DNA from: an uncultured Chloroflexia bacterium
Lineage (GTDB): Bacteria; Chloroflexota; Dehalococcoidia; DSTF01; JALHUB01
Length of the DNA stretch: 64,000 bases
NCBI GenBank assembly: GCA_963842845.1
Contig: CAWJHZ010000005.1
Coordinates: 1,308-65,307, forward strand
Direction of reading: 5' to 3'
The notes beneath the pieces are model-generated. The model was given only the letters and a program-made list of their open reading frames with translations. It was not told where the DNA came from and ran no database searches. Shown one piece after another: positions 17,236 through 38,368 of the stretch. Numbering within the stretch: position 1 is the first letter of the stretch; every line of letters begins with the position of its first letter. The position numbers and the translations under genes are program-made.

Positions 17236-17400
17236 ATGCCTCAGCGTATGTATCCATCAGATTATTATGGAGAATGTGTAACTGAACAGGTAACAGAGCC
17301 ATCTGTTATCCCTATCTGGGTTCCTGTCCTTATTGGAATTTCAATTATTGCTATAACCTTAGTTGCTCTATATGCCATTTCTAAATCATCTAAATCGTGA
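17236..17400 (+). CDS. small single-pass membrane protein, 54 aa (not in the ORF track)
   Basis: GAGGT RBS; MPQRMYPSDYYGEC...IPIWVPVLIGISIIAITLVALYAI. Its stop overlaps the start of the next gene. Confidence 0.35.
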   Translation: MPQRMYPSDYYGECVTEQVTEPSVIPIWVPVLIGISIIAITLVALYAISKSSKS

Positions 17401-17405
17401 ATACT

Positions 17406-18071
17406 ATGTTGAAAAAAGGCAACATTCCTTGGAATAAAGGATTGAAAATAGATAAAAATAAATATCCTGCTATGGGGTTTCAAAAAGGACATGCTAAATT
17501 ATATAAAATCAATGGACGGCTGGGAAAAAAACCTTGGAACAAAGAATTAACAAAAGAAACTGACGAGCGAGTCAAAAAAAATGGTGAAAATGCAGGAAAA
17601 ACAAAAAAATTACGGTATTCAACTGGGGAAATAACGAATTGGCTCAAAGATAAAAAAATTGATAGGGATAAATATCCTAATTTCGGTTATTTAAAACCAC
17701 ATACTACTGAAATGAAGAAAAAGATGTCTCAATCATTCAAAGGGAGGCATTTTTCCCCAAAAACTGAATTTAAAGAGGGGGATTTAATTGGTGAAAAACA
17801 TCCAAATTGGCGAGGAGGATATTCACCATATGGATTCGAGTTTAATAAAAAATTAAAGGAATTAATCAGAAAGCGAGATAATTATACTTGCCAAGAATGC
17901 AAATTTACGGAAAAACAATTAGGTTATACTCTTTCTGTGCATCATATAGATTTCAATAAAAAAAACAATGAACCTACAAATCTTATTTCTTTATGCAAAT
18001 CTTGTCATACTCAAACGAGTTTTAATAGAGCGGATTGGACTGATTATTTTCAAAGTAAAATGGGGATTTAA
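17406..18071 (+). CDS. HNH homing endonuclease with NUMOD3-like GNIPWNKG repeats
   Basis: Three G(N/K)xPWNKG repeats at the N-terminus; C-terminal CQEC...SVHHIDFNKKNNEPTNLISLCKSCH HNH core. Confidence 0.8.
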   Translation: MLKKGNIPWNKGLKIDKNKYPAMGFQKGHAKLYKINGRLGKKPWNKELTKETDERVKKNGENAGKTKKLRYSTGEITNWLKDKKIDRDKYPNFGYLKPHTTEMKKKMSQSFKGRHFSPKTEFKEGDLIGEKHPNWRGGYSPYGFEFNKKLKELIRKRDNYTCQECKFTEKQLGYTLSVHHIDFNKKNNEPTNLISLCKSCHTQTSFNRADWTDYFQSKMGI

Positions 18072-18073
18072 AA

Positions 18074-18208
18074 ATGGTTGAAAGAGCTACACCGCAAGAG
18101 TTCTTCGGGTTATTTGATGATAAAATGATTATAATAGGCATCATTGTTGTTGGTATTGTAGCTTGTGTCGCCTGTGTTACTATCGCAAGTATGAAGTGGG
18201 GAAAATGA
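18074..18208 (+). CDS. small TM protein, 44 aa (not in the ORF track)
   Basis: IIIGIIVVGIVACVACVTIA helix; its stop overlaps the next ATG in an ATGA arrangement. Confidence 0.3.
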   Translation: MVERATPQEFFGLFDDKMIIIGIIVVGIVACVACVTIASMKWGK

Positions 18209-18909
18209 GAAAAATACCGTTCTCTAATGTTTTTAATCCTACTCAAAGTATGGTGGTTTCTGCGAACGCTGAAGCGCGTGTTTTCTATGGTGAAATCCCT
18301 CAGGGTTATGTTGGTTTTCTTGGTGTTCTCTCCTCAAAAGTCTACCCGGGAGTTAGTTGGTCATGGTATATTGATAATGAATGTGTTGAAAGCAACATCA
18401 TGGATTCTCTTGGAGATAATACTATATTAAAACCTCCGTATGTTGTGAAAAAATATGTTGAAGTGAAAGCGAAGAATCCTTTCAATCAAGATGTGGCATT
18501 AGAGGCATCATGTAATGGCGTTTTTTATGAAGATACTAAATTTGTTCCTCTTCAGCTTATACCTTTGGAAGAAATAAAAATATTGAAAGAGATAAAAAAT
18601 GAGATGATAGCTAAAAATCCAAAGGGTGAGGTAACAGATGAGCTTATTAATGTCACAGATATTGTTCAGGATGTTCACCCGTCTGATTATGAGGCGAATC
18701 ATGGTTTGCATTGGACTGTCTGTGATGTCGTGAACCGTGGTCCAAATAATGTGTATATCGCGGTGAATGAATGGAAACAACCTGTCGCTCCGTTGTTGCC
18801 TGGTGAGGCACAGAATATCGACCTTGGAAAAAGAGGGTCTATCAAAAAGATTTACCTGAAATGCGATACTGGACAGACGGCTCAGGTACGATTCCATGTA
18901 TTAAAATAG
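18205..18909 (+). CDS. hypothetical protein, 234 aa
   Basis: ORF with ATGA coupling to the upstream mini-ORF. Confidence 0.5.
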   Translation: MRKIPFSNVFNPTQSMVVSANAEARVFYGEIPQGYVGFLGVLSSKVYPGVSWSWYIDNECVESNIMDSLGDNTILKPPYVVKKYVEVKAKNPFNQDVALEASCNGVFYEDTKFVPLQLIPLEEIKILKEIKNEMIAKNPKGEVTDELINVTDIVQDVHPSDYEANHGLHWTVCDVVNRGPNNVYIAVNEWKQPVAPLLPGEAQNIDLGKRGSIKKIYLKCDTGQTAQVRFHVLK

Positions 18910-18915
18910 AGGTGA

Positions 18916-19437
18916 TTGATTTTGAGTATATTGGGTAGATTTGGGAATACTGACTCAACTCATGATTCAGGTTTTGACCTTAGAACCAATATATGTTTTG
19001 GTCGTTTCCAGATGGATGCTAGGAAAGGAAAGGCTGTAACCATTTCTGCTTTGCTTTCAACAGTGGTGGCTAATGCTGGAACAGGGGAATTTGCGTTATA
19101 TGATGATAGCTTAAATTTCCTTGGCAATACGAGTCAGGTAGCAGTTCCAAACGTACAAGTTGATTATTTTACTTCAGGGTTAACAGCCCCATATATTTTA
19201 AATCCTGGCGCATTTTATTATCTTGCTGTATGGGGTAGTAATGATGGAGCACAACCAATCGCATGTGGTTGGAAAAATAGTGCTGGAGACCATGTGTACG
19301 TTGATAATCTTAATGTTTATGATGCTTGGCCTAACCCGATTGTTAAAGACCAAGATTTTGCTGATTACTTATTGATGGTATGGTTGGATTATGATTCATA
19401 TATTCAAGATGCGGTTTTAACTGGTTTCGCTAAATAA
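18916..19437 (+). CDS. hypothetical protein, 173 aa, with a TTG start
   Basis: GAGGTGA RBS immediately upstream. Confidence 0.45.
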   Translation: MILSILGRFGNTDSTHDSGFDLRTNICFGRFQMDARKGKAVTISALLSTVVANAGTGEFALYDDSLNFLGNTSQVAVPNVQVDYFTSGLTAPYILNPGAFYYLAVWGSNDGAQPIACGWKNSAGDHVYVDNLNVYDAWPNPIVKDQDFADYLLMVWLDYDSYIQDAVLTGFAK

Positions 19438-19451
19438 ATGTATTACAATCA

Positions 19452-19502
19452 TACAATATTACACAATTTTTTTTGTTTTTTTTCTAAAAATGTAATATTG
19501 TA
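19452..19502. terminator. bidirectional rho-independent terminator between convergent genes
   Basis: Inverted repeat TACAATATTACA ... TGTAATATTGTA with a loop rich in T8 runs. Confidence 0.5.
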
Positions 19503-19556
19503 ATATGTCAATAACTATCAATAACTAATCAATAAAATTACTTTCTCATTAAACTA

Positions 19557-20249
19557 TCAATAATTATTGATACTTGTTGATGGGATAATAACCTTCATCG
19601 CTATTACATTCAGGCTTATGAGATACCCGTCAAGGTCATATTTCGGGATGGCAGCAGCACTATTATCCTCGAATCCTTTTGGGAGGAAATCTTGCCATCG
19701 GTATCGTTTTACATCTACGAACCCGTGTTTCTCAAGATACCGTCGAAGGACAGTGAAATCAAAGGCGCATCCGTGTTTATCATAGGGTGTTTTGTGTCCA
19801 CCGACGATAGCCCCCCATAATCGCTCTAAATCTATTCCCTCACTGTACATTTTGACGGTCTTCTCAAAATCGCTGACAGCGACCCGCAAGATGCCCCCTT
19901 GCTTGAGAACCCTGTAACATTCAGATAATGCCTTATCTAGTTCTTCGTTGCGGCTGAGATGGTCAAGAACATGAGATGCGTAGATTTCATCAACAGAACA
20001 ATCATCAAATTTCAAATCAAGGATATCTATCTTCTTGAAAGCGCATCCATTTTTCGCTATCTGCTCTGTTACTCTTATATTTTCCGGTGAAACAATATCG
20101 CAATTAATCCATGGTTCAGGAAGTAATTTTTTTCCGCATCCGATGTTCAAACGAACCTCTTTTTTGTTGCTTGGGCAATCTGGATTCTCACAATAAGTTG
20201 TGTTTGTCATCTCTTGTCTGCAATACGCGCAATAAATACCTGAGAACAT
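19557..20249 (-). CDS. class I SAM-dependent methyltransferase with an N-terminal Cys4 knuckle
   Basis: LNIGCGKKLLPEPWINCDIV (motif I) ... VLKQGGILRVAVSD. Confidence 0.7.
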   Translation of the reverse strand: MFSGIYCAYCRQEMTNTTYCENPDCPSNKKEVRLNIGCGKKLLPEPWINCDIVSPENIRVTEQIAKNGCAFKKIDILDLKFDDCSVDEIYASHVLDHLSRNEELDKALSECYRVLKQGGILRVAVSDFEKTVKMYSEGIDLERLWGAIVGGHKTPYDKHGCAFDFTVLRRYLEKHGFVDVKRYRWQDFLPKGFEDNSAAAIPKYDLDGYLISLNVIAMKVIIPSTSINNY

Positions 20250-20467
20250 TATACTGCCTCCTCACCTAAAACTTCATCTATAAACTGAACAACTTCCCCA
20301 TATCCTGGGCCGTATCCAGCATATTCTTTTTTATATTCTTGCAATAATGTTTTTACATCTTTAATTGCTTGTGTATAATAAAACTCAAACATCATCCATT
20401 CATGTGCTGAATGCATTGTATCTGATTGGACTTTTGGTGGTTTTAAATCTTTTAAAGTTTTTTCCAT
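20249..20467 (-). CDS. hypothetical protein, 72 aa
   Basis: ORF; ATGA coupling. Confidence 0.4.
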   Translation of the reverse strand: MEKTLKDLKPPKVQSDTMHSAHEWMMFEFYYTQAIKDVKTLLQEYKKEYAGYGPGYGEVVQFIDEVLGEEAV

Positions 20468-21597: not shown

Positions 21598-21695
21598 TTT
21601 CCCTCTCTTTCATTATCTTTCTCCTGTACCTTGTATTTCTCGTTCCATATCTATTGAATATTTTCTCCCAGAATGGCAGTTTCTTATTTTCAGGC

Positions 21696-22061
21696 TCAAC
21701 CTGTCTTATTTTGTACTTCATTTTTTTCCTCAATCTCCTTTATTCTAACTTTTAAAAACTCTTCAATATCTTGAAATCCTCTGCCCCAATCATTTATACA
21801 TCCATCAATACATAAAAAACTTTCATCAGAATCATATTCCGCTATTTCAAAAGAATTATTTGCGGGAATTGTATTTATTACAATCCCAGGTAATTCTTTT
21901 TCACCGAAGCGATATAAAGTTCCCCCTACACAGCTATTATATATTGGGTCTGCTTCATAAAATTTATTTCCATCAATATCAATATGTTCTACAATAGCCC
22001 ATGCGATTATTGGATTTAAATAAAAATACTTACTTTTTCTGATATCATCTATTGTTTTCAT
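21696..22061 (-). CDS. hypothetical protein, 121 aa
   Basis: ORF only. Confidence 0.45.
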   Translation of the reverse strand: MKTIDDIRKSKYFYLNPIIAWAIVEHIDIDGNKFYEADPIYNSCVGGTLYRFGEKELPGIVINTIPANNSFEIAEYDSDESFLCIDGCINDWGRGFQDIEEFLKVRIKEIEEKNEVQNKTG

Positions 22062-22065
22062 TTTT

Positions 22066-22410: not shown

Positions 22411-22433
22411 TGATTTTCTTCATTTCTAACATT

Positions 22434-23035: not shown

Positions 23036-23085
23036 TGAGTAATCTTTTCTTCCTGTTCCTCGTGCCTCAAGCATTTTTTCATTTT

Positions 23086-24503: not shown

Positions 24504-24621
24504 TTTCTTTCACCTCATAAAAAAAATAGAATAAAAAAAATAAGAGTATAGAAATAATAGCGATGATTACCATTATATCAAGTTCATGTTCTTGCCAGAA
24601 ATTCTTAATGCTCATTTTCTT

Positions 24622-24948: not shown

Positions 24949-24958
24949 TTTTTTCTCC

Positions 24959-25777
24959 CTATAATATATATTTATATTTTTCTGTCATCATAAATTCATC
25001 ATGGATTCTAGCTAAATTAAAATCATTTACCCTCCAGATGTTGTCCTTAGACCATTGTTTTTTATCATATATCTGTTTGCATTCCTCTCCATACTCAGGT
25101 GGAGACATGGAGACATGAGGATACCGGTATATCATGAGCTTCTGGTCAACAACCACCGGGGTTTTTGCTACATACAGACGGTCAAGAAGCTCGTTATCCC
25201 ACCATTTACAGCCAACATCATACTCCTCGTTAATACCATTAAATCCATACCAAAAAAACCGTGACATGATGATAAACCCACTGGTTATAATAGGGAGGAT
25301 ACTTCGCAATCCTTCTCTCCCCAATGGATTACATGGTAAAATAAAATACCGCTGAGGAAATTTAATGTAACTCACCCATCGTACATCCCCGTTATTCGCC
25401 TCAAGCTCAACAGGTCGTATAGCAACGGAAATACCGAAGTTATCTATTGTTTCCATGAGATTATAAAAGAAATTTGCGGCAAACTCGTTTTTACCGCCAG
25501 TTATCATACAAAATGGTTCCTCTGCATACGCAAGCCCTGTGTTATACCCAGAGAGTAAATCATACCGCATGGTGTTAAAACGAATCTTGGGTGGGGCGTA
25601 CACGACTTTTTTTAATAATGGCACAAGGTCTCGAAACTGCTCTCCTTTCTGTTGTTCCCAGAGTGAATCAATGATAATGAGTTCGATTTCTTTAAGAATC
25701 TGCTTGTTCTGTGATTCAAGTTTCAATAGACGAAGTGAATCTAAATCACCTTTATTTGAAAAAATCAAAGAAAGCAT
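24959..25777 (-). CDS. GT-A fold glycosyltransferase, beta-1,4-galactosyltransferase-like C-terminal domain
   Basis: LPCNPLGREG...FFWYGFNGINEEYDVGCKWWDNELLDRL resembles the b4GalT motif FGGVSAL...INGF.N.YWGWGGEDDD..NRL. Confidence 0.55.
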   Translation of the reverse strand: MLSLIFSNKGDLDSLRLLKLESQNKQILKEIELIIIDSLWEQQKGEQFRDLVPLLKKVVYAPPKIRFNTMRYDLLSGYNTGLAYAEEPFCMITGGKNEFAANFFYNLMETIDNFGISVAIRPVELEANNGDVRWVSYIKFPQRYFILPCNPLGREGLRSILPIITSGFIIMSRFFWYGFNGINEEYDVGCKWWDNELLDRLYVAKTPVVVDQKLMIYRYPHVSMSPPEYGEECKQIYDKKQWSKDNIWRVNDFNLARIHDEFMMTEKYKYIL

Positions 25778-25783: not shown

Positions 25784-26698
25784 TCACTTGAACCCCCTAA
25801 TTTTCTCTATTATCATCTGTTCATTTATTAATTCTGATTCCCAGATAATTAGAGTTGAAAAACCAAATTTAGCAAACGCTTCTTTTCTACCTTCTTCTGT
25901 TTGATAATATTTCATGTTTTTTCTATTATGCCAATAATCCCCAAAAATTTCAATTATCTGCTTTTTTCCATTGCAGTTAATGAAATCAGGGCACAATCCG
26001 TTTATGATTACTTGCCCATCACCAACATAATCCCATTCATCAGGAAAATAATTCTGCAACAAACAATCAAGATAGAGTTCCAATCCATTTGGTTTTATAG
26101 TAAATCTTCTAAAGAAATTTTTCACATAGTTATCATCTTTGAAATGATTTTTATGTGCTACGCTAATTTTTTCTTTTGTTCTTTCTGATTTCGGTTTGTT
26201 AATATGCGTAAAACTTATTTTTTTCCTTATTTTTTCTGCTTTCTCATTACCAAAAAATTCATCTATAGTTTTTCCTTTAATTGGAGGGATTCTACCTAAA
26301 CTTGCTTTTCTAAGTTTTTCCATTGATTCTTCTGAAAAAATACCATTTTTCCCCTTGTTCCAAGGGATTTTCCCTTTCATTTTTTGTTTCCATTCTTCAG
26401 TATGATGTGTCCCAAATAAGGGGTTATTTATACCTTTTTTACCCCACATTGGATTACTTTTTCCAGAATTAATTCCTTTTTTTGCTTTACAAACTCCACA
26501 CATGCAATCTGATTTATGATTCAATGGTTTTCCGATATGAGCTAATTTTATTTTTTTCTTTGTTTCTTCGTTTAAATGTTTTCCTTTAATCCAGGGAATA
26601 TGTCCTTTTTTAAATAAAGTTGGTTCTAATTTTTTTAATGTTTTTTCAGAATGAGAAATTCCTTTGTTCCAAGGTATGTTACCTTTTTTAAACACCAT
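25784..26698 (-). CDS. homing-endonuclease-like protein: NUMOD3-like repeats plus a C-terminal Vsr/PD-(D/E)XK-like nuclease domain
   Basis: GNIPWNKG, GHIPWIKG, GKIPWNKG repeats. C-terminal GLCPDFINCNGKKQIIEIFGDYWHN...TLIIWESE. Paralogue of the C-terminus of ORF 35533-36426. Confidence 0.7.
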   Translation of the reverse strand: MVFKKGNIPWNKGISHSEKTLKKLEPTLFKKGHIPWIKGKHLNEETKKKIKLAHIGKPLNHKSDCMCGVCKAKKGINSGKSNPMWGKKGINNPLFGTHHTEEWKQKMKGKIPWNKGKNGIFSEESMEKLRKASLGRIPPIKGKTIDEFFGNEKAEKIRKKISFTHINKPKSERTKEKISVAHKNHFKDDNYVKNFFRRFTIKPNGLELYLDCLLQNYFPDEWDYVGDGQVIINGLCPDFINCNGKKQIIEIFGDYWHNRKNMKYYQTEEGRKEAFAKFGFSTLIIWESELINEQMIIEKIRGFK

Positions 26699-26810
26699 CT
26701 TTATCCAATATCTCCTCTTTGAGAAAAATAGCCCATGACCGTTTCGTTCCTTTTAATTTTAGAAGCTTATAATATTCATCTTCTTCAACATCTATCTGCA
26801 ATTTAACCAT
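26688..26810 (-). CDS. small RHH-like protein (40 aa) overlapping the endonuclease start; not in the ORF track
   Basis: MVKLQIDVEEDEYYKLLKLKGTKRSWAIFLKEEIL, consistent with a beta-strand followed by two helices. Its stop lies 8 nt inside the endonuclease ORF. Confidence 0.3.
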   Translation of the reverse strand: MVKLQIDVEEDEYYKLLKLKGTKRSWAIFLKEEILDKDGV

Positions 26811-29959: not shown

Positions 29960-30095
29960 AAACAGGTGAAGAATGTGGGATGCATTCATCAAGCAGTTTC
30001 CTCAATGTGAGAACTGCCCTTTTCTTGGTTTTGTGATAGATAGCATGGGTCCGTTGGAGTTCACGTTTATCTGTAAGAAAAAAGAATGTATTTAC

Positions 30096-30169
30096 GTGGA
30101 TGGCAGGATTTGAACCTGCGTACAATCGGTTAACGGCCGATTACTTGAACCTGACTCAGCTACATCCAC
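30096..30169 (-). tRNA. tRNA-like gene, anticodon GUU (Asn), with atypical C33 and a weak D-stem
   Basis: 7-bp acceptor GTGGATG/CATCCAC; T-arm GCAGG-TTCAAAT-CCTGC; anticodon arm ATCGG-CCGTTAA-CCGAT; 74 nt; no CCA encoded. Confidence 0.5.
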
Positions 30170-30842: not shown

Positions 30843-31659
30843 ATGTTCTCAATCATCATATCGACCATACGTGAGGATGTCATGGCGTTAAGACCTGTTT
30901 TTATGACTTCTTCTAAGGATGCGGAGGTTATTATTATAGATTCTTTTTATAATGAGCATACCAAAAAAATTCTTCAGGAATTGGAACATTGTTATAATAA
31001 AGTTATATATGCGCCCCCTAAGCAGCGTACCTGAAGTCAGGGAGTATCAGTTTCTTTCCTCGCATAATACGGGTCTTGCGTACGCTGAGGGGCCTTGGTG
31101 TCTTGCTGTGAATGATAACATTGAGTTTAAACCGGATTTCTTTTATCGGTTGAAAGAAACCATTGATTCCTATTCTCCTTTGTATCAGCATAGGTTTGTG
31201 GTGCGTCCTGTTGACCTTGAGCAGAATTGCAATGATATACGATGGGAGAGTTATATTTTTTTTAAACAACGGTATTTCCATCTTCCTTGTGGTCCTCTTG
31301 GGAAAGGAGGGATGCGCCAGTTTGTTCCTATTTTGACCTGTGGGGCAGTCGTGGCTCATCTGGAAACATGGTTTTTGCTGAATGGTTTCGATGAGCGATA
31401 TGATATTGGGCTTTCTTGGTTTGATAACGAGTTGTTTGACCGGTTGGTTATCATGCGTTATCAAATTGTTCTTGACCAGCAACTCATGATTTATCACCTT
31501 CCCTATATAGTAAGTTCTATTGGGAAAGAGGAATGTAAAAAACTCTATGATTCTACGATGATGGAGAGGAATAATAGTATCCGTTCCCCTAATTCCTTTG
31601 ATTTACGGGGGATGCATGATGCTCTGATGAAAGAAAAAGAGAAGTATGTGATATGTTGA
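30843..31659 (+). pseudogene. second copy of the b4GalT-like GT-A glycosyltransferase, frameshifted near 31015-31035
   Basis: ORFs 30843-31034 and 30952-31659 align in series with the single paralogue 24959-25777 (...VIYAPPKQR / EYQFLSSHNTGLAYAE...). A C5 homopolymer lies at 31015-31019. Confidence 0.55.
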
Positions 31660-31662
31660 TTT

Positions 31663-32254: not shown

Positions 32255-32285
32255 CTAATAGAAAAGAAAGCATTTAAAGTTTTTC

Positions 32286-34007
32286 CTATTTCTCTGCTTC
32301 TACAATCACAGAAAGCGACGGGAATGTATTTATTGTCTGCGTCTGAATCACTTTTGACCTTGATGAAAACGGTGATGCTATTTGTATGTTCTTGAATCCT
32401 GTTTCCTCAAGTAATTTAATTAAAGCATCTTCATCATAGAGTGTTTTATGGTTTGCATATAGTAATTCATGGAGTGCTTCAGCATCATCATGAGCTCGTT
32501 CCACCCCTACATTAACATAGCGGTATTCTTTTATTTCTCCATTAAGATATTTCCGTGTTATTTTAGCGGTATCTGGTACGCTTATCCTGATGATTCCTCC
32601 TGGCTTCAAAACACGGCAGCATTCTGTTAGAAACTGTTTACCTTCTACTCTAGTAAAATGTTCAAGGAGATGTGAATGGAAAATGATGTCTACAATGTTA
32701 TCCTCGCAGGGTATCCCTTTTGATATGTCTATTTGTCTGAAACGGTATGCCTGTGTATCCGCAAATTGTCTCAAATCAATGATATCTATGTTCACCCATC
32801 CATAATAAAACATGTTCTTGTATGACCCGATGTTTAATTTATAGAGGTCGTCAATATATTTTATTACGCCGTTTTCTCCCCATAGTCCCGGGGCCATTGA
32901 TGTTGGTGGCTGCTGATACGGGTTTTCATATTCTACCGTCCGTGGATACTCTATTTGAATAGGATACTCAGGGGCGATTGATTTGAATTTATCTAACCAA
33001 AACTGCTTGTTTTTCATCGTCACATGCGTTATATCAATATCTTTATCTGCCTCAACATACCCATGGTCAGTGAAATGAATCGCATGCAGTCCTCTTTTTG
33101 ACACGCGTACCATTTCCTGTATCACGGAATCAATTTTATCCTCTGGTATGTGTTCAAGGAGGTTACTGCTAAAACAAAGGTCTATTGCTTTGTTTGCGAA
33201 TCCCCATGGTGTAATTGTTATATCGCAAACCCTCATGCTGTCTGTTGCTCTGGTGTGCCAACAATGATGACTAATGTCAAGTCCTGTTACTTTTATCCCC
33301 TCGTTCTCAAGCACACGGATGACATATCCACGACCGCAACCGACATCAAGGACGCTCTCTGGTTTTAATTTCGCTATAAACCGTGCTGTGGAATAATGGG
33401 TGCAGAAATCACGATATTCTCTATATCCGATGGTTCCGTCCTCGAAATACTCACGTTCAAAAACTTCTCCTTGCATTTTAAACACCTCGATAATCATGTC
33501 TGTCTTGGAGACAGGATGTGGTAACACCGTTACTTTAAAGCCTGCTTCTCCAAATAATTTTTTTGCGTATTCAGGGCTGAAACCAGCTTTATGGCAACCA
33601 CCATAATTCGGGAACTCTTGGCTACCAAAAATACGCTCAACTGTCCCTTTATTTACTCCTTCTTCAACCACACTTCTGCATTGTTCAAGGAGATTCGCTG
33701 TAATAATCACGGCTCTCCCATTTGGTTTCAGGATACGATGAATTTCTTTAATGAAATCTATTGTTTTTCTCCATTCAACATGCTCTATAGTATATTGACA
33801 GAAAACGCCATCATACTCCCCTGTTTTCAACGGCCAGGGGAAACATGAAAGGTCATGGATGATGTCAACAGTCGGCTCTTTGATAATGTCGACATTCGGG
33901 CGTATGATAGGGTTTTTCCCCCCCCCAAGCTCTATTGTTTTTCCTGAAAACGGGAGGATGTAACTATATTGGTTTTTAGTAAGCGGAACGTATGGCATTA
34001 CAAACAT
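32286..34007 (-). CDS. methyltransferase with three tandem class I methyltransferase domains
   Basis: Three independent motif I/post-I sets: IELGGGKNP...ILKPNGRAVI; VLDVGCGRGYVIRVL...VSKRGLHAI; YYGWVNIDII...VLKPGGIIRISVPD. Confidence 0.7.
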   Translation of the reverse strand: MFVMPYVPLTKNQYSYILPFSGKTIELGGGKNPIIRPNVDIIKEPTVDIIHDLSCFPWPLKTGEYDGVFCQYTIEHVEWRKTIDFIKEIHRILKPNGRAVIITANLLEQCRSVVEEGVNKGTVERIFGSQEFPNYGGCHKAGFSPEYAKKLFGEAGFKVTVLPHPVSKTDMIIEVFKMQGEVFEREYFEDGTIGYREYRDFCTHYSTARFIAKLKPESVLDVGCGRGYVIRVLENEGIKVTGLDISHHCWHTRATDSMRVCDITITPWGFANKAIDLCFSSNLLEHIPEDKIDSVIQEMVRVSKRGLHAIHFTDHGYVEADKDIDITHVTMKNKQFWLDKFKSIAPEYPIQIEYPRTVEYENPYQQPPTSMAPGLWGENGVIKYIDDLYKLNIGSYKNMFYYGWVNIDIIDLRQFADTQAYRFRQIDISKGIPCEDNIVDIIFHSHLLEHFTRVEGKQFLTECCRVLKPGGIIRISVPDTAKITRKYLNGEIKEYRYVNVGVERAHDDAEALHELLYANHKTLYDEDALIKLLEETGFKNIQIASPFSSRSKVIQTQTINTFPSLSVIVEAEK

Positions 34008-35082
34008 CCTTGTAGCGACTTTGTATTTTCTCCCAGGTATATTTTTCTGCGGTTTTCCGTGCGTTTTTCCCCATTCTATCAATTTCTTCAGGGTTGTCCT
34101 TGAAGTATTGCAGTTTCGTTAGTATGCTCTCAGCATCGCGTCTGGGAACGACAAAACCATCTTTGCCGTCTGTGATGAGTTCTGACATCCCTGCTCCTTC
34201 TGACACGATTACAGGTCGGTTGAATGCCATCGCTTCAAGCGGTGTGATTCCAAAACCTTCAATGACGGAGGGTTGAACATAGACGCTTATTTTACTATAG
34301 AACTCAGGTAAAGATGTTTCACCGAGGACATGAATTGTCTCGTTTGATTCTAAATTAGCTGCTTCTCGTCCACCAATTATTAATTGCATGTTGTTTTTTT
34401 GTATTGCGGTTAATAGATATATTATTCCTTTGTCTTTCCCGAGGCTACCGAAATACCCTGGCATGAACTCCGCTGGTGGTTCAGGTATCTCAGATGGAAG
34501 ATAGCAACCATGTGGTATCACTATTGGTTTTTCTGTAAGTTTTGCCTCATTCATGATATATTCCGCTGATGAATGAGAATGGACTATTACTTTATCCGCA
34601 AGTCGTAGTTGTTTCAAATATAACTCAAGAAGATATTGATTTGTAAGGTGGGGATAGGGATATTGATGCGGAATATATTTAAGATGCTCTTCCCTGCTGA
34701 TTTTGATATTATGCGGGGCGAGGTCACAGATGACTTTGCAGAATGATTCTTTTTTAAGGGTTCTTACTGTCTCACCGAACGGGCATCCGTAGGTTATCGC
34801 TAGGTCAAAATCCTTATATCGTACCATTGAATTTGCGAAGTAATCATAGAAAAAAGGGTCATCATATCCAAACTGCCGAGGGTCAAGACATTGAGCATAA
34901 ATGGGAATTACTATATCCGCTATTGCAGATAAATACCTTCCATCTTGAAAATGCTGATTGGAGAGAATAAGCTCTACTGTTGATATGGATTTTAATACTT
35001 CCAGCAGATTATAGCTGACGATGCCGCCTCCGCTGTATTGGTTCACACCAGAATTAGTGATGAGTGCTGATTTCATTTCCAC
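33976..35082 (-). CDS. GT4-family (GT-B) glycosyltransferase
   Basis: C-terminal EGFGITPLEAMAFNRPVIVSEGAGMSELI signature. Confidence 0.85.
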   Translation of the reverse strand: MEMKSALITNSGVNQYSGGGIVSYNLLEVLKSISTVELILSNQHFQDGRYLSAIADIVIPIYAQCLDPRQFGYDDPFFYDYFANSMVRYKDFDLAITYGCPFGETVRTLKKESFCKVICDLAPHNIKISREEHLKYIPHQYPYPHLTNQYLLELYLKQLRLADKVIVHSHSSAEYIMNEAKLTEKPIVIPHGCYLPSEIPEPPAEFMPGYFGSLGKDKGIIYLLTAIQKNNMQLIIGGREAANLESNETIHVLGETSLPEFYSKISVYVQPSVIEGFGITPLEAMAFNRPVIVSEGAGMSELITDGKDGFVVPRRDAESILTKLQYFKDNPEEIDRMGKNARKTAEKYTWEKIQSRYKDVCNAIRSAY

Positions 35083-35200
35083 ACCACGGACATAATCCTT
35101 TTTTTTTATACCCGTAATAATTCAATATTGTCGCTAATACCATGCCACCGAATAAACCAAGGAGAAAACCGATAATTATGTCTTTTGTGTCTTTTTTCAT

Positions 35201-35536
35201 TTATCCCCCAACATAGGGTGTTTTTTCTTTCTCACCCTCTATTTTCATGGCTTCAGCGACATGAATCGTATACGTGTTTTTTAATTTCTGTGACCTCATT
35301 AATAGGTTAAGAATAAAATTAACTGATACCATATCATAGACAAGATTTTTCATCGTTGGGTGTCCATTGAAATTCTCTTTACATATCTTTTCAGTTTCGT
35401 CAGCAAGATGACGCATTACTTCTTGAAGAAGTTTATTCATCTTTTCAACATCAAAATCAAGGGTTTTTAAAATACTCTCATCCTGGAGTTGTTTCAGTTT
35501 TTTTTTATCTATCCCTATGTTGATTTCTTTTATCAT
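35201..35536 (-). CDS. hypothetical protein, 111 aa
   Basis: ORF only. Confidence 0.4.
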   Translation of the reverse strand: MIKEINIGIDKKKLKQLQDESILKTLDFDVEKMNKLLQEVMRHLADETEKICKENFNGHPTMKNLVYDMVSVNFILNLLMRSQKLKNTYTIHVAEAMKIEGEKEKTPYVGG

Positions 35537-36426
35537 TTATCCTCCTCGTTGAAATCTTCAATCTTTTTTGCTATTTCTTCATCTGATAATTTTCTCATTT
35601 CATCATCCCACAAAATAAGGGTTTCGTATCCTGCTTTTGAAAGAATTATTTTTCTAATTTTTTCAGTTCTTCTTGGAGGGGGAGAGAATGCTCCATCTTT
35701 ATCATGGAATGCTCTTCCAAAAACCTCTATTATTCTATTATTGGAATTATTTATAAAATCAGGATTTAAACCATTTATCCAAATACTTTTATTTCCAACA
35801 TATTTAAAAGGTAGTTTGTATTTCTTTAGAATGTTCTCGATTCTAATTTCTGGCTTTGTTTTATTGTCTCCATTTACATATGTCCATGGTTTTCGGTCTG
35901 TACAATTTTTTGATGCTTGCTTTCCAATACAGTCTTTTGTCTTGTGTAATCCTAATGAATTTGCTTTTACTTGTATTGAAGCATATCGATGATTTGGTAT
36001 CAACTCTATCAATTCTAATTTAGATGATGCGGCATAATTTTCAATTAGATTTTTCATCTCTTCAGCCATCCATGTTCTTGGATTTTTACTCCATCTAGAA
36101 AAACGTTCTATCTCACGTTGGTTAAATTTTTTTGATTTCTCAAATCCAACTCTTTTCGCTTTATGCTCAATACTTCGCATAGTTCTTCCAGGAAATAGAG
36201 ATATAAGTTCGCTTAGATATTTATCTGGATAATTGTCTCTTAAAATTTTAATTTCTTTTTTTGACCATTTATTCTTTTTTTTAAGACCATACTTATTTAT
36301 TTTTTGTTGTATGCTAGATATCGTTCTACTGGACAGTAGTCTCTGGAGTTCTTGATAGGAAGATGCTGTAGAAAAATATTTTTTTAATGTTTCTACTTCT
36401 TGTTCTTCCCAATGTTTATTTCCCAT
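35533..36426 (-). CDS. homing-endonuclease-like protein: N-terminal Myb/SANT-like helix-turn-helix repeats plus a C-terminal Vsr/PD-(D/E)XK-like nuclease
   Basis: C-terminus GLNPDFINNSNNRIIEVFGRAFHD...TLILWDDE is paralogous to 25784-26698. The N-terminus has two W...W...RT..S...K.K repeats. Confidence 0.6.
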   Translation of the reverse strand: MGNKHWEEQEVETLKKYFSTASSYQELQRLLSSRTISSIQQKINKYGLKKKNKWSKKEIKILRDNYPDKYLSELISLFPGRTMRSIEHKAKRVGFEKSKKFNQREIERFSRWSKNPRTWMAEEMKNLIENYAASSKLELIELIPNHRYASIQVKANSLGLHKTKDCIGKQASKNCTDRKPWTYVNGDNKTKPEIRIENILKKYKLPFKYVGNKSIWINGLNPDFINNSNNRIIEVFGRAFHDKDGAFSPPPRRTEKIRKIILSKAGYETLILWDDEMRKLSDEEIAKKIEDFNEEDK

Positions 36427-36461
36427 TAATTAAACAATGGGTTTGACGTATTTAAACATTT

Positions 36462-37574
36462 CTACCAAGTATTACCCGATAAAATTTGCTTATATAGGGA
36501 TAGATATTCCCTAGCCATCCTTTCATATGAAAACCACTCTGCGTGTCGTCTACAATCTTCTGGTCGTATCTCATCAATCCTTTTGATATAATACATAAAT
36601 TCTTCGTCACTGTTAGCGAAAAAACCATTGAAACCATGTACCGTTGTCTCGTTCCATCCACCAGATGGGCATACCACGGTTGGTGTTCCGCAGGCGTTTG
36701 CTTCTGGGACAATCAAGCCGAAAGGCTCTATGAAATGATTCGCTTGACCTGGGAGACCGGTATAGGTTTCTACGCTTGGCATCACGACCGCTTTCGCATT
36801 CTGGTACATCTCGAGTTTCTTCTCAAAAGGAACTGCTTTGCCGAGTTCACCAACAACTGATACTTGACTGCTTTTTGAGAGTTTCTCATTGATGAATTTG
36901 AGGTAATCAGGGTCTTGTCCGAAGCTGCCGCCAAGGATAAATCCTTTCATCTTGAGTTTATCGCAAATATCTATGAAACGATGAGCTCCTTTTGGAGGGA
37001 AAATACGGCTCACCCATAGGAGGTAATCTTGTTTCTCTTTTTTAAAAGGGTATTTTGTTAAATCAATGCCGTTCTGAACGCCCCTCCATATGCATCCCAT
37101 CGGGGGAGAAAACGTCCCATCTGGTTTTATCCATCGAAACTCTGTGAGATTCTTCGCATGGTTCTGTGAAACACCACAGAGATTTGCATTAAAAGCGGGT
37201 TTTTCTCTGAAGCCAGGGTCAGGGCCATGATGTGTTTTTATGATACGTCCGTTGCGCTCATTGTAGAGAGAATAAGGAAAATAATTCCATGAATGGTCAT
37301 GGAGAATATCTGCTTCAAGTAACGCTTTTTTCGCCTGAGGATTATCCATATACATCTTCCAAGCGTTGATTTCATCGACTGCCCCTGGTTGCCCTGCCGC
37401 ATAGATAAACCCATGCTGTGGCTGATACGAGCCCATAGGCGCAAAATGATGTACCTCGTGTCCATGGTCATCAAAATATTTCGCCAATAATCCAACTATC
37501 AATTCAAGACCAGCATACCCTTTCAAATCAGGATGTGATGCAAAGATTTGTGTGCTATATAGTGCTATTTTCAT
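36462..37574 (-). CDS. GT4-family glycosyltransferase
   Basis: AAGGAAGG RBS; MKIALYSTQ...; C-terminal FIEPFGLIVPEANACGTPTVV. Its start overlaps the endonuclease stop in an ATGA arrangement. Confidence 0.8.
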   Translation of the reverse strand: MKIALYSTQIFASHPDLKGYAGLELIVGLLAKYFDDHGHEVHHFAPMGSYQPQHGFIYAAGQPGAVDEINAWKMYMDNPQAKKALLEADILHDHSWNYFPYSLYNERNGRIIKTHHGPDPGFREKPAFNANLCGVSQNHAKNLTEFRWIKPDGTFSPPMGCIWRGVQNGIDLTKYPFKKEKQDYLLWVSRIFPPKGAHRFIDICDKLKMKGFILGGSFGQDPDYLKFINEKLSKSSQVSVVGELGKAVPFEKKLEMYQNAKAVVMPSVETYTGLPGQANHFIEPFGLIVPEANACGTPTVVCPSGGWNETTVHGFNGFFANSDEEFMYYIKRIDEIRPEDCRRHAEWFSYERMAREYLSLYKQILSGNTW

Positions 37575-38368
37575 ATTGCAACCTTCCTTAATATACATGG
37601 TTTTATGTTTTTAATCAATTCTTTCACTTCCCTATCTCTATACATCCCAATTTTATAGATGTCGCTTTTATCTTTTTCCCGTTTCTTTCGTTTTGCTTTT
37701 CTGATGGTTGGATGAAACCCTAATTCCTCAAGAAATTGCTTTATCATTGATAATGTTTTTTCATTTGAATTAATTATTTCTATAGCATAGCATCCGTTAT
37801 TATTTAGCAGAGAACCTTCAGATTCGTACATGCCTTGTATAAAAGCGAATTTAAATTTATCTTCTATTGCATTTTTTTGTATCCATTCTAACGGTGTTTT
37901 TTTATACCATTCTACAAATATTTTGCAATATGCTCTTGTTTTAAAGGCATCATTCCACTTTTCATTTTTCTTTTTCTCCGTAAAAATCCACCCACTGTGA
38001 GAGATTCCTATAGATTTTAATGAAGAAATGAATGCCTCTACAAAACATTTATCAGTGGAAGTAAGTTCTATTTTATAATGGTTACAACCATTTTTAGTAG
38101 GTTGTATGGATACACTACCATCTCCTTTTAATATTCCAAGTAAATAAAAAAGATTTTCTGATTCTTTTGGTTTCCATCCATCTACTGTATTTTCCCAATA
38201 TCTTAAATCTAATTTTGATAATGAAGTCTGGTCTGCTTGTTTGCGAATAAAAAAACCTGATTCGGAGAATCTTCGTTTCAAAGTATGTCTACTTATGTGT
38301 TCTTTTTTTGATATTTCAGATAAACTTAATCCAGATTCGTATTGGTTATATACAGATGCTATCTTCAT
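37571..38368 (-). CDS. free-standing LAGLIDADG homing endonuclease with an N-terminal helix-turn-helix
   Basis: Two motifs, LLGILKGDGSV and FAFIQGMYESEGSL. ATGA overlaps with the glycosyltransferase genes on both sides. Confidence 0.8.
   Translation of the reverse strand: MKIASVYNQYESGLSLSEISKKEHISRHTLKRRFSESGFFIRKQADQTSLSKLDLRYWENTVDGWKPKESENLFYLLGILKGDGSVSIQPTKNGCNHYKIELTSTDKCFVEAFISSLKSIGISHSGWIFTEKKKNEKWNDAFKTRAYCKIFVEWYKKTPLEWIQKNAIEDKFKFAFIQGMYESEGSLLNNNGCYAIEIINSNEKTLSMIKQFLEELGFHPTIRKAKRKKREKDKSDIYKIGMYRDREVKELIKNIKPCILRKVAI

What the first reader, a model, noticed from the sequence alone, without database searches (positions are those of the whole stretch)
17397..38368. Five homing endonucleases of three families interleaved with the glycosylation genes, several translationally coupled to their neighbours
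The glycan island carries two HNH endonucleases with NUMOD3-like repeats (17406-18071 and, at the left end, 4563-5069). It also carries two NUMOD3 or Myb-like proteins with Vsr/PD-(D/E)XK C-termini (25784-26698 and 35533-36426) and a LAGLIDADG enzyme (37571-38368). The LAGLIDADG gene sits between two glycosyltransferase genes with ATGA overlaps on both sides. The Vsr-like gene at 25784 is overlapped by a 40-aa RHH-like mini-ORF. This density of free-standing homing endonucleases in metabolic rather than replication genes is typical of large virus genomes and is unusual for cellular loci. The two Vsr-like C-termini are clear paralogues, implying intragenomic spread.
Basis: partly seen in the sequence, partly recalled or inferred. 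Interest (0 to 1): 0.65.

Follow-up and report, generated by a model that had tools for sequence, protein, structure and literature searches.

The report
Selfish nuclease genes in viral sugar island
An uncultivated, virus-like DNA element carries several selfish DNA-cutting "homing endonuclease" genes wedged between its sugar-modification genes, and close relatives that lack two of them show exactly where they were inserted; this is a clean example of a known phenomenon, not a new one.

Summary
The core observation holds. The window encodes five free-standing homing-endonuclease (HE) genes of three families: HNH (17397-18071; 4563-5069), LAGLIDADG (37571-38368) and two proteins with a Vsr-like nuclease domain (25784-26698; 35533-36426). 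By profile and predicted fold, the Vsr-like pair belong to the known EDxHD/I-Bth0305I family. I also found an intein-borne LAGLIDADG enzyme (51831-53261) and a decayed HNH relic (43929-43976).

Relatives give HE-less alleles. In L090/L091 the three glycosyltransferase genes abut with overlapping stop/start codons. L089 also lacks the LAGLIDADG gene and the Myb-Vsr gene. In L087 (93% identical DNA), homology ends exactly at the ATGA where the LAGLIDADG gene begins.

The LAGLIDADG cassette took over the downstream gene's first 12 nt and regenerates them at its 3' end. All HE ORFs have 27-31% GC, against 39% for other genes.

Corrections:
- 4563-5069 has no NUMOD3 repeats and lies outside the island.
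- The 40-aa mini-ORF is real and conserved in one relative, but not demonstrably RHH.
- The two Vsr-like domains belong to different subfamilies, so they are not a recent intragenomic duplication.
- Free-standing LAGLIDADG genes in glycosylation clusters are already reported in cellular Haloferax.

Verdict: new members of known kinds; moderate interest.

The parts
37571..38368 (-). Free-standing LAGLIDADG homing-endonuclease gene (265 aa). It has an N-terminal HTH-like region and two LAGLIDADG motifs: LGILKGDGS at residues 77-85 and IQGMYESEGS at 177-186.
   Evidence: PF14528 E=4.2e-17, two stretches. Best solved homologue is I-DmoI (E=7e-5), with both motifs and the D/E acidic residues aligned. 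ATGA overlaps on both sides. Absent from relatives L087, L089, L090 and L091. GC 0.297 against 0.43-0.44 for the flanking glycosyltransferase genes. The junctions are reproduced in an independent Logan assembly, L088.
38357..38368 (-). Left copy of a 12-bp direct repeat, ATGAAGATAGCA. It is the ancestral start of the GT4b gene and now serves as the start of the LAGLIDADG ORF.
   Evidence: The HE-less alleles L090/L091 read ctATGAAGATAGGtttg at the GT2-like/GT4b junction. The window reads ctATGAAGATAGCAtctg at the HE start.
37563..37574 (-). Right copy of the direct repeat, ATGAAAATAGCA. It is the regenerated start of GT4b and is preceded by a Shine-Dalgarno-like aaggaagg that lies inside the 3' end of the HE gene.
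   Evidence: Read directly from the sequence.
35533..36426 (-). Free-standing EDxHD/Vsr-like homing-endonuclease gene 'VsrB' (297 aa). The N-terminus carries Myb/SANT-like HTH repeats. The C-terminal nuclease domain carries E193, D223, E234, H241 and E255.
   Evidence: phrog_323 E=2.6e-16, weak Myb/GcrA hits. C-terminus homologous to VsrA. Invariant family residues are retained. Absent between GT4b and GT4a in L089, L090 and L091. GC 0.300. A TTTAAATA motif lies 23-30 nt upstream of its ATG.
35201..35536 (-). 111-aa ORF of unknown function, coupled to VsrB by an ATGA overlap and part of the same insert.
   Evidence: Overlap read from the sequence. Absent from L089/L090/L091. No significant Pfam hit (best E=0.036, below cutoff) and no PHROG hit. 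GC 0.321.
35054..35200 (-). 48-aa predicted membrane mini-ORF between the 111-aa ORF and GT4a (probable GT4a ATG at 35076).
   Evidence: L089 has an unrelated 78-aa membrane ORF in the same slot.
25784..26698 (-). Free-standing EDxHD/Vsr-like homing-endonuclease gene 'VsrA' (304 aa). It has N-terminal NUMOD3 repeats and a C-terminal nuclease domain with E207, D238, E250, H257 and E268.
   Evidence: NUMOD3 E=1.1e-11. 405 homologues. Family profile against the PDB: I-Bth0305I catalytic domain 3r3p E=4.2e-7. The AF2 C-terminal domain has pLDDT >95. Foldseek: 3r3p TM 0.75, prob 1.0; 3hrl 0.69; Vsr 0.50. Homologues sit at different positions in relatives L002, L004, L058 and L183. GC 0.294.
26688..26810 (-). 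40-aa mini-ORF overlapping the VsrA start by 11 nt, with a TTTTAAATATATA motif upstream. Possible regulator; function not established.
   Evidence: Called as a gene in L001. Conserved at 26/40 residues upstream of the HE in L002/L003. Absent from about 75 other HE loci. No RHH profile hit.
17397..18071 (+). Free-standing HNH endonuclease gene (224 aa; probable ATG at 17406). Motif: CxxC ... HH ... N ... CxxCH. Its N-terminal GNIPWNKG repeats are shared with VsrA.
   Evidence: PF01844 E=2.9e-7, phrog_8446 E=4e-20. N-terminal similarity to VsrA E=2e-5. Motif positions. GC 0.307. No HE-less allele was found.
4563..5069 (+). Second HNH/EndoVII-like endonuclease gene (168 aa): zinc ribbons plus DH...CxxCN. 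It lies outside the glycosylation island.
   Evidence: phrog_2255 E=3.7e-15, phrog_1035 (endonuclease VII) E=4e-11, no Pfam hit. GC 0.290.
43929..43976 (+). Decayed relic of an HNH gene. IPDGFRVLCRNCNWIE matches 12/16 residues of the C-terminus of 4563-5069.
   Evidence: tblastn E=5e-5 within the window. An in-frame stop lies just upstream.
51831..53261 (-). Intein (S72...HN548, +1 Ser) carrying a LAGLIDADG endonuclease, inside ORF 51669-53474.
   Evidence: PF14890 E=1.2e-16 and PF14528 E=1.3e-16. Boundaries read. GC 0.275 against 0.34/0.41 in the exteins.

Best explanation
The window is part of an uncultivated, virus-like element of about 73 kb. Its glycan-synthesis island has been colonised by selfish, free-standing homing-endonuclease genes (HEGs).

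The genes are one I-DmoI-like LAGLIDADG gene, two EDxHD (I-Bth0305I/Vsr-fold) genes with different DNA-binding N-termini (NUMOD3 and Myb-like), and an HNH gene at the island edge. Elsewhere in the window there is a second HNH gene, an intein-borne LAGLIDADG enzyme and an HNH relic.

Proposed mechanism (inferred from what is known of these families):
1. An HE-plus and an HE-minus relative meet in one cell.
2. The enzyme cuts the HE-minus allele at or near the empty junction.
3. Repair copies the HEG and flanking markers from the HE-plus genome ('intronless homing').
4. The insert splits the recognition site and so protects its carrier.

The LAGLIDADG cassette is inserted with ORF precision. It uses the initiation region and first 12 nt of the downstream glycosyltransferase gene. 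At its 3' end it supplies a new Shine-Dalgarno-like sequence and a copy of those 12 nt. Translational coupling of the operon is therefore kept on both sides.

The two EDxHD cassettes instead bring an AT-rich TTTAAATA-like upstream element and small accessory ORFs (40 aa; 111 aa).

Shown: the ORFs, family membership, retained catalytic residues, presence/absence polymorphism with exact breakpoints, variable positions among relatives, and low GC. Inferred: nuclease activity, target sites and homing itself.
For: Family membership:
- (LAGLIDADG, HNH).
- (EDxHD). The profile hits 3r3p at E=4.2e-7. The fold match has TM 0.75. E207, D238, E250 and H257 are invariant in 37 sequences. An acidic residue occurs at E268 in 29 of 37.
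- The residue roles come from the I-Bth0305I paper, PMC3239194.

HE-less alleles:
- L090/L091 have GT2-like, GT4b and GT4a abutting with overlapping stop/start codons.
- L089 is collinear from the 243-aa structural gene (89% identity) to the 598-aa methyltransferase. It lacks both HEGs and the 111-aa ORF.
- L087 is 92.9% identical over 765 nt. Homology stops at window 38364/38365, the ATGA junction, and a 32-aa ORF follows instead of the HEG.
- L004 has small ORFs in that slot, plus inteins inside both GT4 genes.

Other evidence:
- The 12-bp direct repeat flanks the LAGLIDADG insert.
- All HE ORFs have GC 0.275-0.307, against 0.389 +/- 0.044 for other genes.
- Homologues of VsrA sit beside different genes in L002, L004, L058 and L183. 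Many IMG/VR contigs carry 2-3 copies.
- There is no intron in the window.
- Independent Logan contigs L001 and L088 reproduce the junctions.
- The HNH relic shows a cycle of gain and decay.
Against: - No cleavage activity or target site has been demonstrated.
- No HE-less allele was found for the HNH gene 17397-18071 or, at an orthologous position, for VsrA.
- The HE-less relatives L089-L091 are only about 73% identical in the glycosyltransferases, so the time and direction of events (gain versus loss) is inferred. Only L087 is close, and it is 868 bp long and does not reach GT4b.
- Classical homing does not create a target duplication, so the 12-bp repeat needs an extra assumption: the original insertion was illegitimate, or the cassette was selected to restore the downstream start.
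- The viral nature of the element is not proven. PHROGs give no hit and fold searches of the 243-aa protein are inconclusive.
Confidence: 0.8

Rival explanations
1. The nucleases are retained because they benefit the element. They could act as weapons against co-infecting relatives (marker exclusion or degradation of competitor DNA). They could also drive gene conversion that swaps glycan-synthesis cassettes, rather than being purely selfish passengers.
For: - The HEGs cluster in the island that is most conserved and shared within the lineage. The GT4b family has about 76 members at 31-73% identity.
- Relatives carry other mobile elements in the same genes: inteins at the EX7E motif region of both GT4 genes in L004.
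- Shalev et al. proposed HE-initiated gene conversion of glycosylation islands in Haloferax (PMC5867893).
- Nuclease genes mark the boundaries of genetic exchange between phages (PMC10448857; title and abstract seen).
Against: Sequence alone cannot distinguish this from selfish homing. The low GC, the patchy distribution and the HNH relic fit neutral or selfish turnover. No fitness data exist.
Confidence: 0.12
2. The 40-aa ORF and the nuclease 25784-26698 form a toxin-antitoxin-like addiction pair: a small DNA-binding antitoxin or repressor placed upstream of, and overlapping, a nuclease toxin.
For: - The two ORFs overlap by 11 nt.
- The mini-ORF is conserved at 26/40 residues in L002/L003, while the adjacent HE is only 39% identical.
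- A beta-strand/helix/helix pattern can be read by eye.
- An RHH-like 57-aa ORF overlaps a homologous HE in L050.
Against: - No RHH profile hit at E<=1 and no PDB profile hit.
- About 75 of about 80 homologous HE loci lack any such ORF.
- The nuclease carries long sequence-specific DNA-binding repeats typical of homing enzymes.
Confidence: 0.04
3. The Vsr-like proteins are DNA-repair enzymes of the Vsr type (T:G mismatch nicking after 5-methylcytosine deamination), or domesticated regulators, and not homing enzymes.
For: - JGI annotates some homologues as 'very short patch repair endonuclease'.
- The Vsr fold is recovered.
- LAGLIDADG and Myb/HTH domains can be domesticated as regulators. For example, the WhiA-like Pfam model also hits the LAGLIDADG protein (E=1.5e-7).
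Against: - The family profile hits I-Bth0305I at E=4e-7 but Vsr only at E about 0.6-1.
- The fold match to Vsr is poorer: TM 0.50 against 0.75.
- The Pfam Vsr model is not among the hits.
- Vsr His64 is Phe here (alignment; column counts).
- The multicopy, patchy, low-GC and position-variable distribution is not that of a repair gene.
Confidence: 0.03
4. The apparent insertions are assembly artefacts, that is, chimeric joins.
For: The contig does appear chimeric at its left end. Positions 1 to about 3500 are 65-80% GC and encode an MMPL transporter fragment.
Against: - Independent Logan contigs L001 and L088 reproduce the UGDH/mini-ORF/VsrA/272-aa junctions and the GT2-like/LAGLIDADG/GT4b junctions at 100% protein identity.
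- Reading frames and ATGA couplings are intact at every junction.
Confidence: 0.01

Closest known systems
EDxHD homing endonucleases (prototype I-Bth0305I, PDB 3R3P; Dassa 2009; Taylor 2011, PMC3239194)
   Same: The domain order matches: an N-terminal modular DNA-binding region (NUMOD) followed by a C-terminal Vsr-fold nuclease. I-Bth0305I is the best sequence-profile hit and the best fold hit. The conserved Glu, Asp, His and acidic residue are retained. The family is reported to include free-standing members.
   Different: I-Bth0305I is encoded in a group I intron in a phage recA gene and uses NUMOD2/HTH motifs. Here the genes are free-standing between glycosylation genes. One uses NUMOD3 repeats and the other Myb-like repeats. 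The last acidic residue is Glu rather than Asp. tblastn finds no match in the GenBank phage collection.
I-DmoI (monomeric archaeal LAGLIDADG homing endonuclease)
   Same: It is the best solved homologue (E=7e-5). It is a single chain with two LAGLIDADG motifs, and Asp and Glu sit at the motif ends.
   Different: I-DmoI is intron-encoded in an archaeal rRNA gene (my own knowledge). The window protein is free-standing, has an extra N-terminal HTH-like region of about 60 aa, and shares only weak sequence similarity.
Free-standing HEGs of T4-like phages (Seg, Mob; 'intronless homing', Belle et al. 2002, cited in PMC5867893)
   Same: They are free-standing genes between conserved genes, variably present among relatives, with a density of roughly one per 10 kb (the T4 figure is my own knowledge). 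The presumed mechanism is the same: cleavage near the empty site and co-conversion of flanking markers.
   Different: The T4 enzymes are GIY-YIG and HNH types and lie mostly near replication or nucleotide-metabolism genes. Here LAGLIDADG and EDxHD types lie in a glycan-synthesis island.
Free-standing LAGLIDADG genes in Haloferax alternative glycosylation clusters (Shalev et al. 2018, PMC5867893)
   Same: They are free-standing LAGLIDADG genes inside variable glycosylation gene clusters. The authors suggested that they promote gene conversion of the island.
   Different: Those are cellular haloarchaeal chromosomes, the Pfam family is different (LAGLIDADG_2), and the flanks are non-coding. Here the gene sits in a virus-like element and is inserted precisely between two translationally coupled genes.
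E. coli Vsr mismatch endonuclease / DUF559
   Same: The core fold is shared, as are the Asp (D51 = D238) and His (H69 = H257) positions and the Trp before the His.
   Different: Only marginal profile similarity (E about 1). His64 is replaced by Phe. The proteins are fused to long DNA-binding repeats and have a mobile, multicopy distribution.

Membership tests
LAGLIDADG homing endonucleases (37571-38368) | Two LAGLIDADG motifs in one chain (or one motif per subunit of a homodimer) | tested here: met
   PF14528 E=4.2e-17 with two stretches. Motifs at residues 77-85 and 177-186. Both align to I-DmoI.
LAGLIDADG homing endonucleases (37571-38368) | A catalytic acidic residue at the end of each motif | tested here: met
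   GDG (Asp83) and SEG (Glu184) align with the corresponding GDG and AEG of I-DmoI.
LAGLIDADG homing endonucleases (37571-38368) | Mobility: presence/absence polymorphism at a defined site | tested here: met
   Absent in L087, L089, L090 and L091. The breakpoint is exactly at the ATGA junction.
LAGLIDADG homing endonucleases (37571-38368) | Site-specific double-strand cleavage of the empty allele | not testable with these tools
   Needs biochemistry.
EDxHD / I-Bth0305I family (25784-26698 and 35533-36426) | C-terminal Vsr-like nuclease fold | tested here: met
   AF2 C-terminal domain pLDDT >95. Foldseek 3r3p TM 0.75, prob 1.0. Profile against 3r3p E=4.2e-7. The model is of 25784-26698; 35533-36426 is linked by homology.
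EDxHD / I-Bth0305I family (25784-26698 and 35533-36426) | Conserved E, D, H and D active-site residues | tested here: met
   E207/E193, D238/D223 and H257/H241 are invariant in 37 sequences. The last position is Glu (E268/E255; acidic in 29 of 37) and aligns within one residue of I-Bth0305I D222 / Vsr D97.
EDxHD / I-Bth0305I family (25784-26698 and 35533-36426) | N-terminal modular DNA-binding region (NUMOD) | tested here: met
   NUMOD3 x3, E=1.1e-11, in 25784-26698. In 35533-36426 the region is replaced by Myb/GcrA-like repeats, for which only weak Pfam hits exist.
EDxHD / I-Bth0305I family (25784-26698 and 35533-36426) | Site-specific cleavage and homing | not testable with these tools
   Indirect evidence only. 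35533-36426 is absent from L089-L091. Homologues of 25784-26698 sit at different positions in relatives.
Vsr mismatch-repair endonuclease | Significant match to Vsr sequences and conservation of His64 | tested here: not met
   Profile against Vsr chains gives E=0.6-1.1. No Pfam Vsr hit. The His64 position is Phe in 33 of 37 sequences (alignment; counts).
HNH endonucleases (17397-18071) | HNH motif with flanking Cys pairs | tested here: met
   PF01844 E=2.9e-7, above the gathering score. CQEC at 165, HH at 182-183, CKSCH at 200.
HNH endonucleases (4563-5069) | HNH motif recognised by a curated profile | tested here: inconclusive
   No Pfam hit. PHROG HNH E=3.7e-15 and EndoVII E=4e-11. DH...CxxCN is read by eye.
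NUMOD3-bearing proteins (4563-5069) | NUMOD3 repeats | tested here: not met
   No NUMOD3 hit at E<=0.1. No similarity to the repeat regions of the other HEs.
Ribbon-helix-helix proteins (mini-ORF 26688-26810) | Match to RHH profiles or structures | tested here: not met
   No Pfam family at E<=1. No RHH chain in the PDB profile search. A genuine RHH gene in the window (43751-43921) scores 1.6e-6 in the same search.
Inteins (51831-53261) | Splicing blocks: N-terminal Ser/Cys, C-terminal His-Asn followed by Ser/Cys/Thr | tested here: met
   PF14890 E=1.2e-16. The sequence reads S72-ISADT ... LCHN548 | S549.

The most novel reading that the evidence does not exclude
In this uncultivated virus lineage the glycan-synthesis island, not the replication module, is the main arena for homing elements. 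At least three nuclease families target the same few glycosyltransferase genes, both as free-standing cassettes and as inteins. The inteins sit at the EX7E catalytic motif region of two GT4 enzymes in relative L004.

The resulting double-strand breaks could drive exchange of glycan-synthesis alleles between co-infecting viruses, a kind of 'serotype' shuffling.

The LAGLIDADG cassette would also illustrate an undescribed insertion design: it captures the downstream gene's start codon and regenerates that start plus a ribosome-binding site at its own 3' end.
Probability: 0.25. Interest if true: 0.6.

Novelty: new member of a known kind. Interest (0 to 1): 0.4.

Why it matters
The finding gives a well-resolved natural example of free-standing homing-endonuclease turnover outside the usual replication genes, with filled and empty alleles in hand.

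- The empty junctions (L090/L091, L087) give concrete candidate target sites. These could be tested with recombinant LAGLIDADG and EDxHD enzymes. The EDxHD family has only one biochemically characterised prototype in the literature I read (PMC3239194).
- The case extends the link between homing endonucleases and glycosylation islands, noted before in Haloferax chromosomes, to a virus-like element.
- It points to inteins in glycosyltransferases in a relative.
- It does not reveal a new kind of system.

Tried and rejected
Searches that gave nothing:
- Viral-contig scan with the single GT4b protein: no relatives.
- Exact-protein look-ups of GT4b (378- and 370-aa forms) and of DegT: not on record.
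- tblastn against GenBank phages with the 243-aa protein, the LAGLIDADG protein, VsrA and the GC-rich ORF: no match.
- Metagenome-contig scan with the 272-aa family alignment: only false pattern matches.
- Exact DNA pattern of the empty junction in metagenome contigs: no hit.
- Genome-contig scan with the GT4b alignment: only distant bacterial GT4 genes (<=34% identity), so no host assignment.
- Paper search for the accession prefix JBGGGZ: nothing.

Tests that did not settle a question:
- PHROGs on ten structural or other proteins: no hits.
- AF2 model of the 243-aa protein (pLDDT 88) searched against PDB and BFVD: only weak jelly-roll-type hits (TM <0.3 on the query). The virion type is undetermined.
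- RHH test of the mini-ORF by Pfam and PDB profile: negative.
- Pfam on the spliced extein of the intein ORF: nothing. My guess that it is a primase-polymerase rests only on DxD and HGFH motifs read by eye.

Ideas rejected:
- That this HE family is specific for glycosyltransferase genes in general. The immediate neighbours in 136 IMG/VR cases are diverse: capsid, baseplate, DNA polymerase, RecA, RNR; GT2 in only 4.
- That the free-standing LAGLIDADG derives from the GT4 inteins of L004, or from the window's own intein. No similarity was found.

Full report
**What is in the window**

From about position 3,700 onward the window has 30-48% GC and is densely packed with mostly co-oriented ORFs. 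Most of these have no Pfam or PHROG match.

Between about 19.5 and 39.1 kb lies a genuine glycan-synthesis island. It contains:
- a DegT aminotransferase;
- a UDP-glucose dehydrogenase;
- an NAD-dependent epimerase;
- a cupin;
- seven SAM-methyltransferase-domain ORFs;
- two GT4 glycosyltransferases (GT4b at 36462-37574; GT4a at 33976-35076);
- a GT2/Anp1-like gene (38365-39132);
- two paralogues of a lineage-specific GT2-like family, at 24959-25777 and 30952-31659 (43% identity; GT2 hits in relatives).

No housekeeping genes are present and there is only one tRNA. Relatives occur in IMG/VR but not in GTDB representative genomes. The element is therefore most likely a virus or another mobile element. 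I could not establish the virion type or the host.

**Checking the observation**

All five ORFs are present.

- *17397-18071* is an HNH enzyme (PF01844 E=2.9e-7; phrog_8446 E=4e-20). Its N-terminal GNIPWNKG-type repeats also occur at the N-terminus of 25784-26698.
- *4563-5069* matches only PHROG HNH/EndoVII families. It has no NUMOD3 repeats and lies 12 kb from the island.
- *37571-38368* is a two-motif LAGLIDADG protein. Its best solved homologue is the archaeal monomeric enzyme I-DmoI, and the Asp and Glu at the motif ends are kept.
- *25784-26698 ('VsrA')* has three NUMOD3 stretches.
- *35533-36426 ('VsrB')* has weak Myb/GcrA-like hits. The two share a C-terminal domain (37% identity, E=6e-15).

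The ATGA overlaps on both sides of the LAGLIDADG gene are real. VsrB is ATGA-coupled to a 111-aa ORF.

The 40-aa ORF (correct coordinates 26688-26810) overlaps the VsrA start by 11 nt. Rfam finds no intron in the window, so the genes are free-standing.

- an intein with a LAGLIDADG domain at 51831-53261;
- a 16-residue relic of an HNH gene at 43929-43976.

**What the Vsr-like domain is**

A search of 5.8 billion proteins returned 405 homologues. Most carry NUMOD3 and some carry DUF559.

In an alignment of 37 members that includes both window proteins, these residues are invariant (VsrA numbering): E207, G226, P237, D238, E250, G253, H257 and W286.

A profile of this alignment hits the catalytic domain of the homing endonuclease I-Bth0305I (PDB 3R3P) at E=4.2e-7. 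It hits E. coli Vsr only at E about 0.6-1.

An AlphaFold model has pLDDT >95 over residues 200-304. Foldseek ranks 3R3P first (TM 0.75 on the target, probability 1.0). The DUF559 protein 3HRL follows (0.69), then Vsr (0.50).

The residue roles come from the I-Bth0305I paper (PMC3239194), which equates D196/N208/H213/D222 with Vsr D51/H64/H69/D97. The window proteins map as follows:

| I-Bth0305I | Vsr | VsrA | VsrB |
|---|---|---|---|
| D196 | D51 | D238 | D223 |
| N208 (variable 'x') | H64 | F252 | F236 |
| H213 | H69 | H257 | H241 |
| D222 | D97 | E268 | E255 |

The last row aligns within one residue. Both window proteins are therefore members of the known EDxHD family with an intact active site.

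**Empty alleles**

The GT4b protein has only about 76 homologues at E<=1e-30, so it marks a specific lineage.

- *L090 and L091* (GT4b 73% identical). The three glycosyltransferase genes abut directly. The GT2-like stop overlaps the GT4b start (ctATGAagatagg). The GT4b stop overlaps the GT4a start (ggATGGTAAaatc).
- *L089* is collinear with the window from the 243-aa structural gene (89% identity) through to the large methyltransferase. It has neither the LAGLIDADG gene, nor VsrB, nor the 111-aa ORF.
- *L087* is an 868-bp NCBI contig, 92.9% identical to window 39128-38364. Homology ends exactly at the ATGA where the LAGLIDADG gene starts, and a 32-aa ORF follows.
- *L004*, a more distant relative, has a similar 31-aa ORF and a 72-aa ORF in that slot.

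The LAGLIDADG gene and the VsrB-plus-111-aa cassette are therefore presence/absence polymorphisms with defined breakpoints.

**Anatomy of the LAGLIDADG insert**

The HE ORF begins ATGAAGATAGCA. This matches the ancestral GT4b start (ATGAAGATAGG in L089, L090 and L091).

GT4b in the window begins ATGAAAATAGCA, 798 nt downstream. It is preceded by aaggaagg, which lies within the 3' end of the HE gene.

The cassette is thus flanked by a 12-bp direct repeat (11 of 12 identical). It keeps stop/start coupling on both sides. It presumably splits whatever site the enzyme recognises.

**The other cassettes**

VsrB has a 35-nt spacer with a TTTAAATA motif 23-30 nt upstream of its ATG. The mini-ORF/VsrA pair has TTTTAAATATATA at a similar distance. 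These resemble archaeal TATA boxes. This is a resemblance from my own knowledge and was not tested.

Homologues of VsrA lie next to different genes in related islands:
- between a methyltransferase and a 169-aa gene in L002;
- between a methyltransferase and an RGP gene in L004;
- upstream of a GT2-like gene of the 272-aa family in L183, as in the window.

Across IMG/VR the family's neighbours are diverse, and many contigs carry two or three copies.

The mini-ORF is conserved upstream of the HE only in L002/L003 (26 of 40 residues). An RHH-like ORF occupies that position in L050. I could not verify an RHH fold for the mini-ORF.

**Composition**

Every HE ORF has 27.5-30.7% GC, against 38.9 +/- 4.4% for 26 other genes. 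The glycosyltransferases flanking the LAGLIDADG gene have 43-44%. This fits foreign or selfish origin.

**Paralogy**

The VsrA nuclease domain is 70-80% identical to proteins on unrelated contigs. The VsrB domain is 37% identical to VsrA but 44-45% identical to other foreign proteins. The two therefore belong to different subfamilies, and recent intragenomic spread is not supported.

**Mechanism and rivals**

The best-supported reading (confidence 0.8) is selfish free-standing HEGs that spread by cleavage of empty alleles and recombinational repair during co-residence with relatives.

- Shown: family membership, intact active sites, empty alleles, variable positions, low GC, and a decayed relic.
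- Inferred: activity, target sites and homing.

The rivals are set out in their own section:
- a beneficial role in competition or in cassette exchange;
- a toxin-antitoxin-like pair for the mini-ORF and VsrA;
- Vsr-type repair or domesticated regulators;
- assembly artefact. Independent Logan contigs L001 and L088 reproduce the junctions and argue against this.

**Comparison with the known, and novelty**

- EDxHD enzymes with N-terminal NUMODs, including free-standing ones, are described in PMC3239194.
- Free-standing HEGs between conserved phage genes are classical ('intronless homing', cited in PMC5867893).
- Free-standing LAGLIDADG genes inside glycosylation clusters have been reported in Haloferax chromosomes, with the suggestion that they promote gene conversion of the island (PMC5867893).

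The finding is therefore new members of known kinds. Three features may merit a note:
- the start-capturing, coupling-preserving design of the LAGLIDADG cassette;
- the concentration of three nuclease families on a few glycosyltransferase genes;
- the inteins at the EX7E motif region of both GT4 genes in relative L004. These are inserted at EANA^CGTP and YVQP^SVTEGFG.

Interest 0.4.

Noticed in passing
window 1-3700: The first ~3.5 kb are 65-80% GC and encode an MMPL-family transporter fragment (2117-3433, minus strand; PF03176 E=5.9e-33). GC falls to about 35% between 3450 and 3700. This is most likely a chimeric assembly join with a high-GC cellular genome.
   Followed up: partly
window 51669-53474 (intein 51831-53261): A LAGLIDADG-type intein (S72...HN548, +1 Ser) sits in a small ORF whose spliced extein is only 124 aa. 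By eye the extein has DLD and HGFH motifs and the intein follows 'AGDD', which suggests a primase-polymerase-like protein. Pfam finds nothing for the extein.
   Followed up: partly
L004:1528-3723 and L004:4628-6754: In a related 84-kb contig both GT4 glycosyltransferases carry LAGLIDADG inteins. They are inserted at EANA^CGTP and YVQP^SVTEGFG, in or next to the EX7E motif. The window's orthologues are uninterrupted.
   Followed up: partly
window 43929-43976: A 16-residue relic of an HNH gene (12/16 identical to the C-terminus of 4563-5069) lies just downstream of a genuine RHH regulator gene (43751-43921; PF01402 E=1.6e-6).
   Followed up: yes
window 11339-17143: A 1934-aa protein built almost entirely of Ser/Gly/Val-rich repeats (…VSGxVxVxSG…). 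The DNA has extreme strand skew (GC skew -0.33, AT skew +0.48). It is probably a fibre or surface protein. Beta-helix and InlB B-repeat proteins lie next to it (8361-10545).
   Followed up: no
window 24959-25777 and 30952-31659; L182, L183: A lineage-specific GT2-like family with only 14 homologues in 5.8 billion proteins is present twice in the window (43% identity). In L183, as in the window, a VsrA-type endonuclease gene sits immediately upstream of a member of this family.
   Followed up: partly
window 42908-43639: A 243-aa protein heads a conserved structural-looking block and is 89% identical in L089. It has only 36 homologues among 1.84 billion representatives. The confident AF2 model (pLDDT 88) is a beta-sandwich with N-terminal helices. 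Fold hits are only weak jelly-roll types (birnavirus VP2, CBM35), so the virion type is unresolved.
   Followed up: partly
window 30095-30169: A tRNA-Asn (GTT) gene lies inside the glycosylation island.
   Followed up: no
L087:3-764: In the 93%-identical relative the GT2-like gene is split by an in-frame stop into 101-aa and 129-aa ORFs. This could be a pseudogene or a sequencing error.
   Followed up: no
window, upstream of 26810, 36426, 17143 and 30601: TTTAAATA/TTTATATA motifs recur upstream of operon-leading genes (23-50 nt before the ATG), while internal genes have GGAGG-like sequences. This is compatible with an archaeal host but was not tested statistically.
   Followed up: no
window 35201-35536: A 111-aa ORFan is co-inserted with the Myb-Vsr endonuclease gene and ATGA-coupled to it. 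It has no significant Pfam match (best E=0.036), no PHROG match and no homologue in any fetched locus. It may be cargo or an accessory factor of the cassette.
   Followed up: partly
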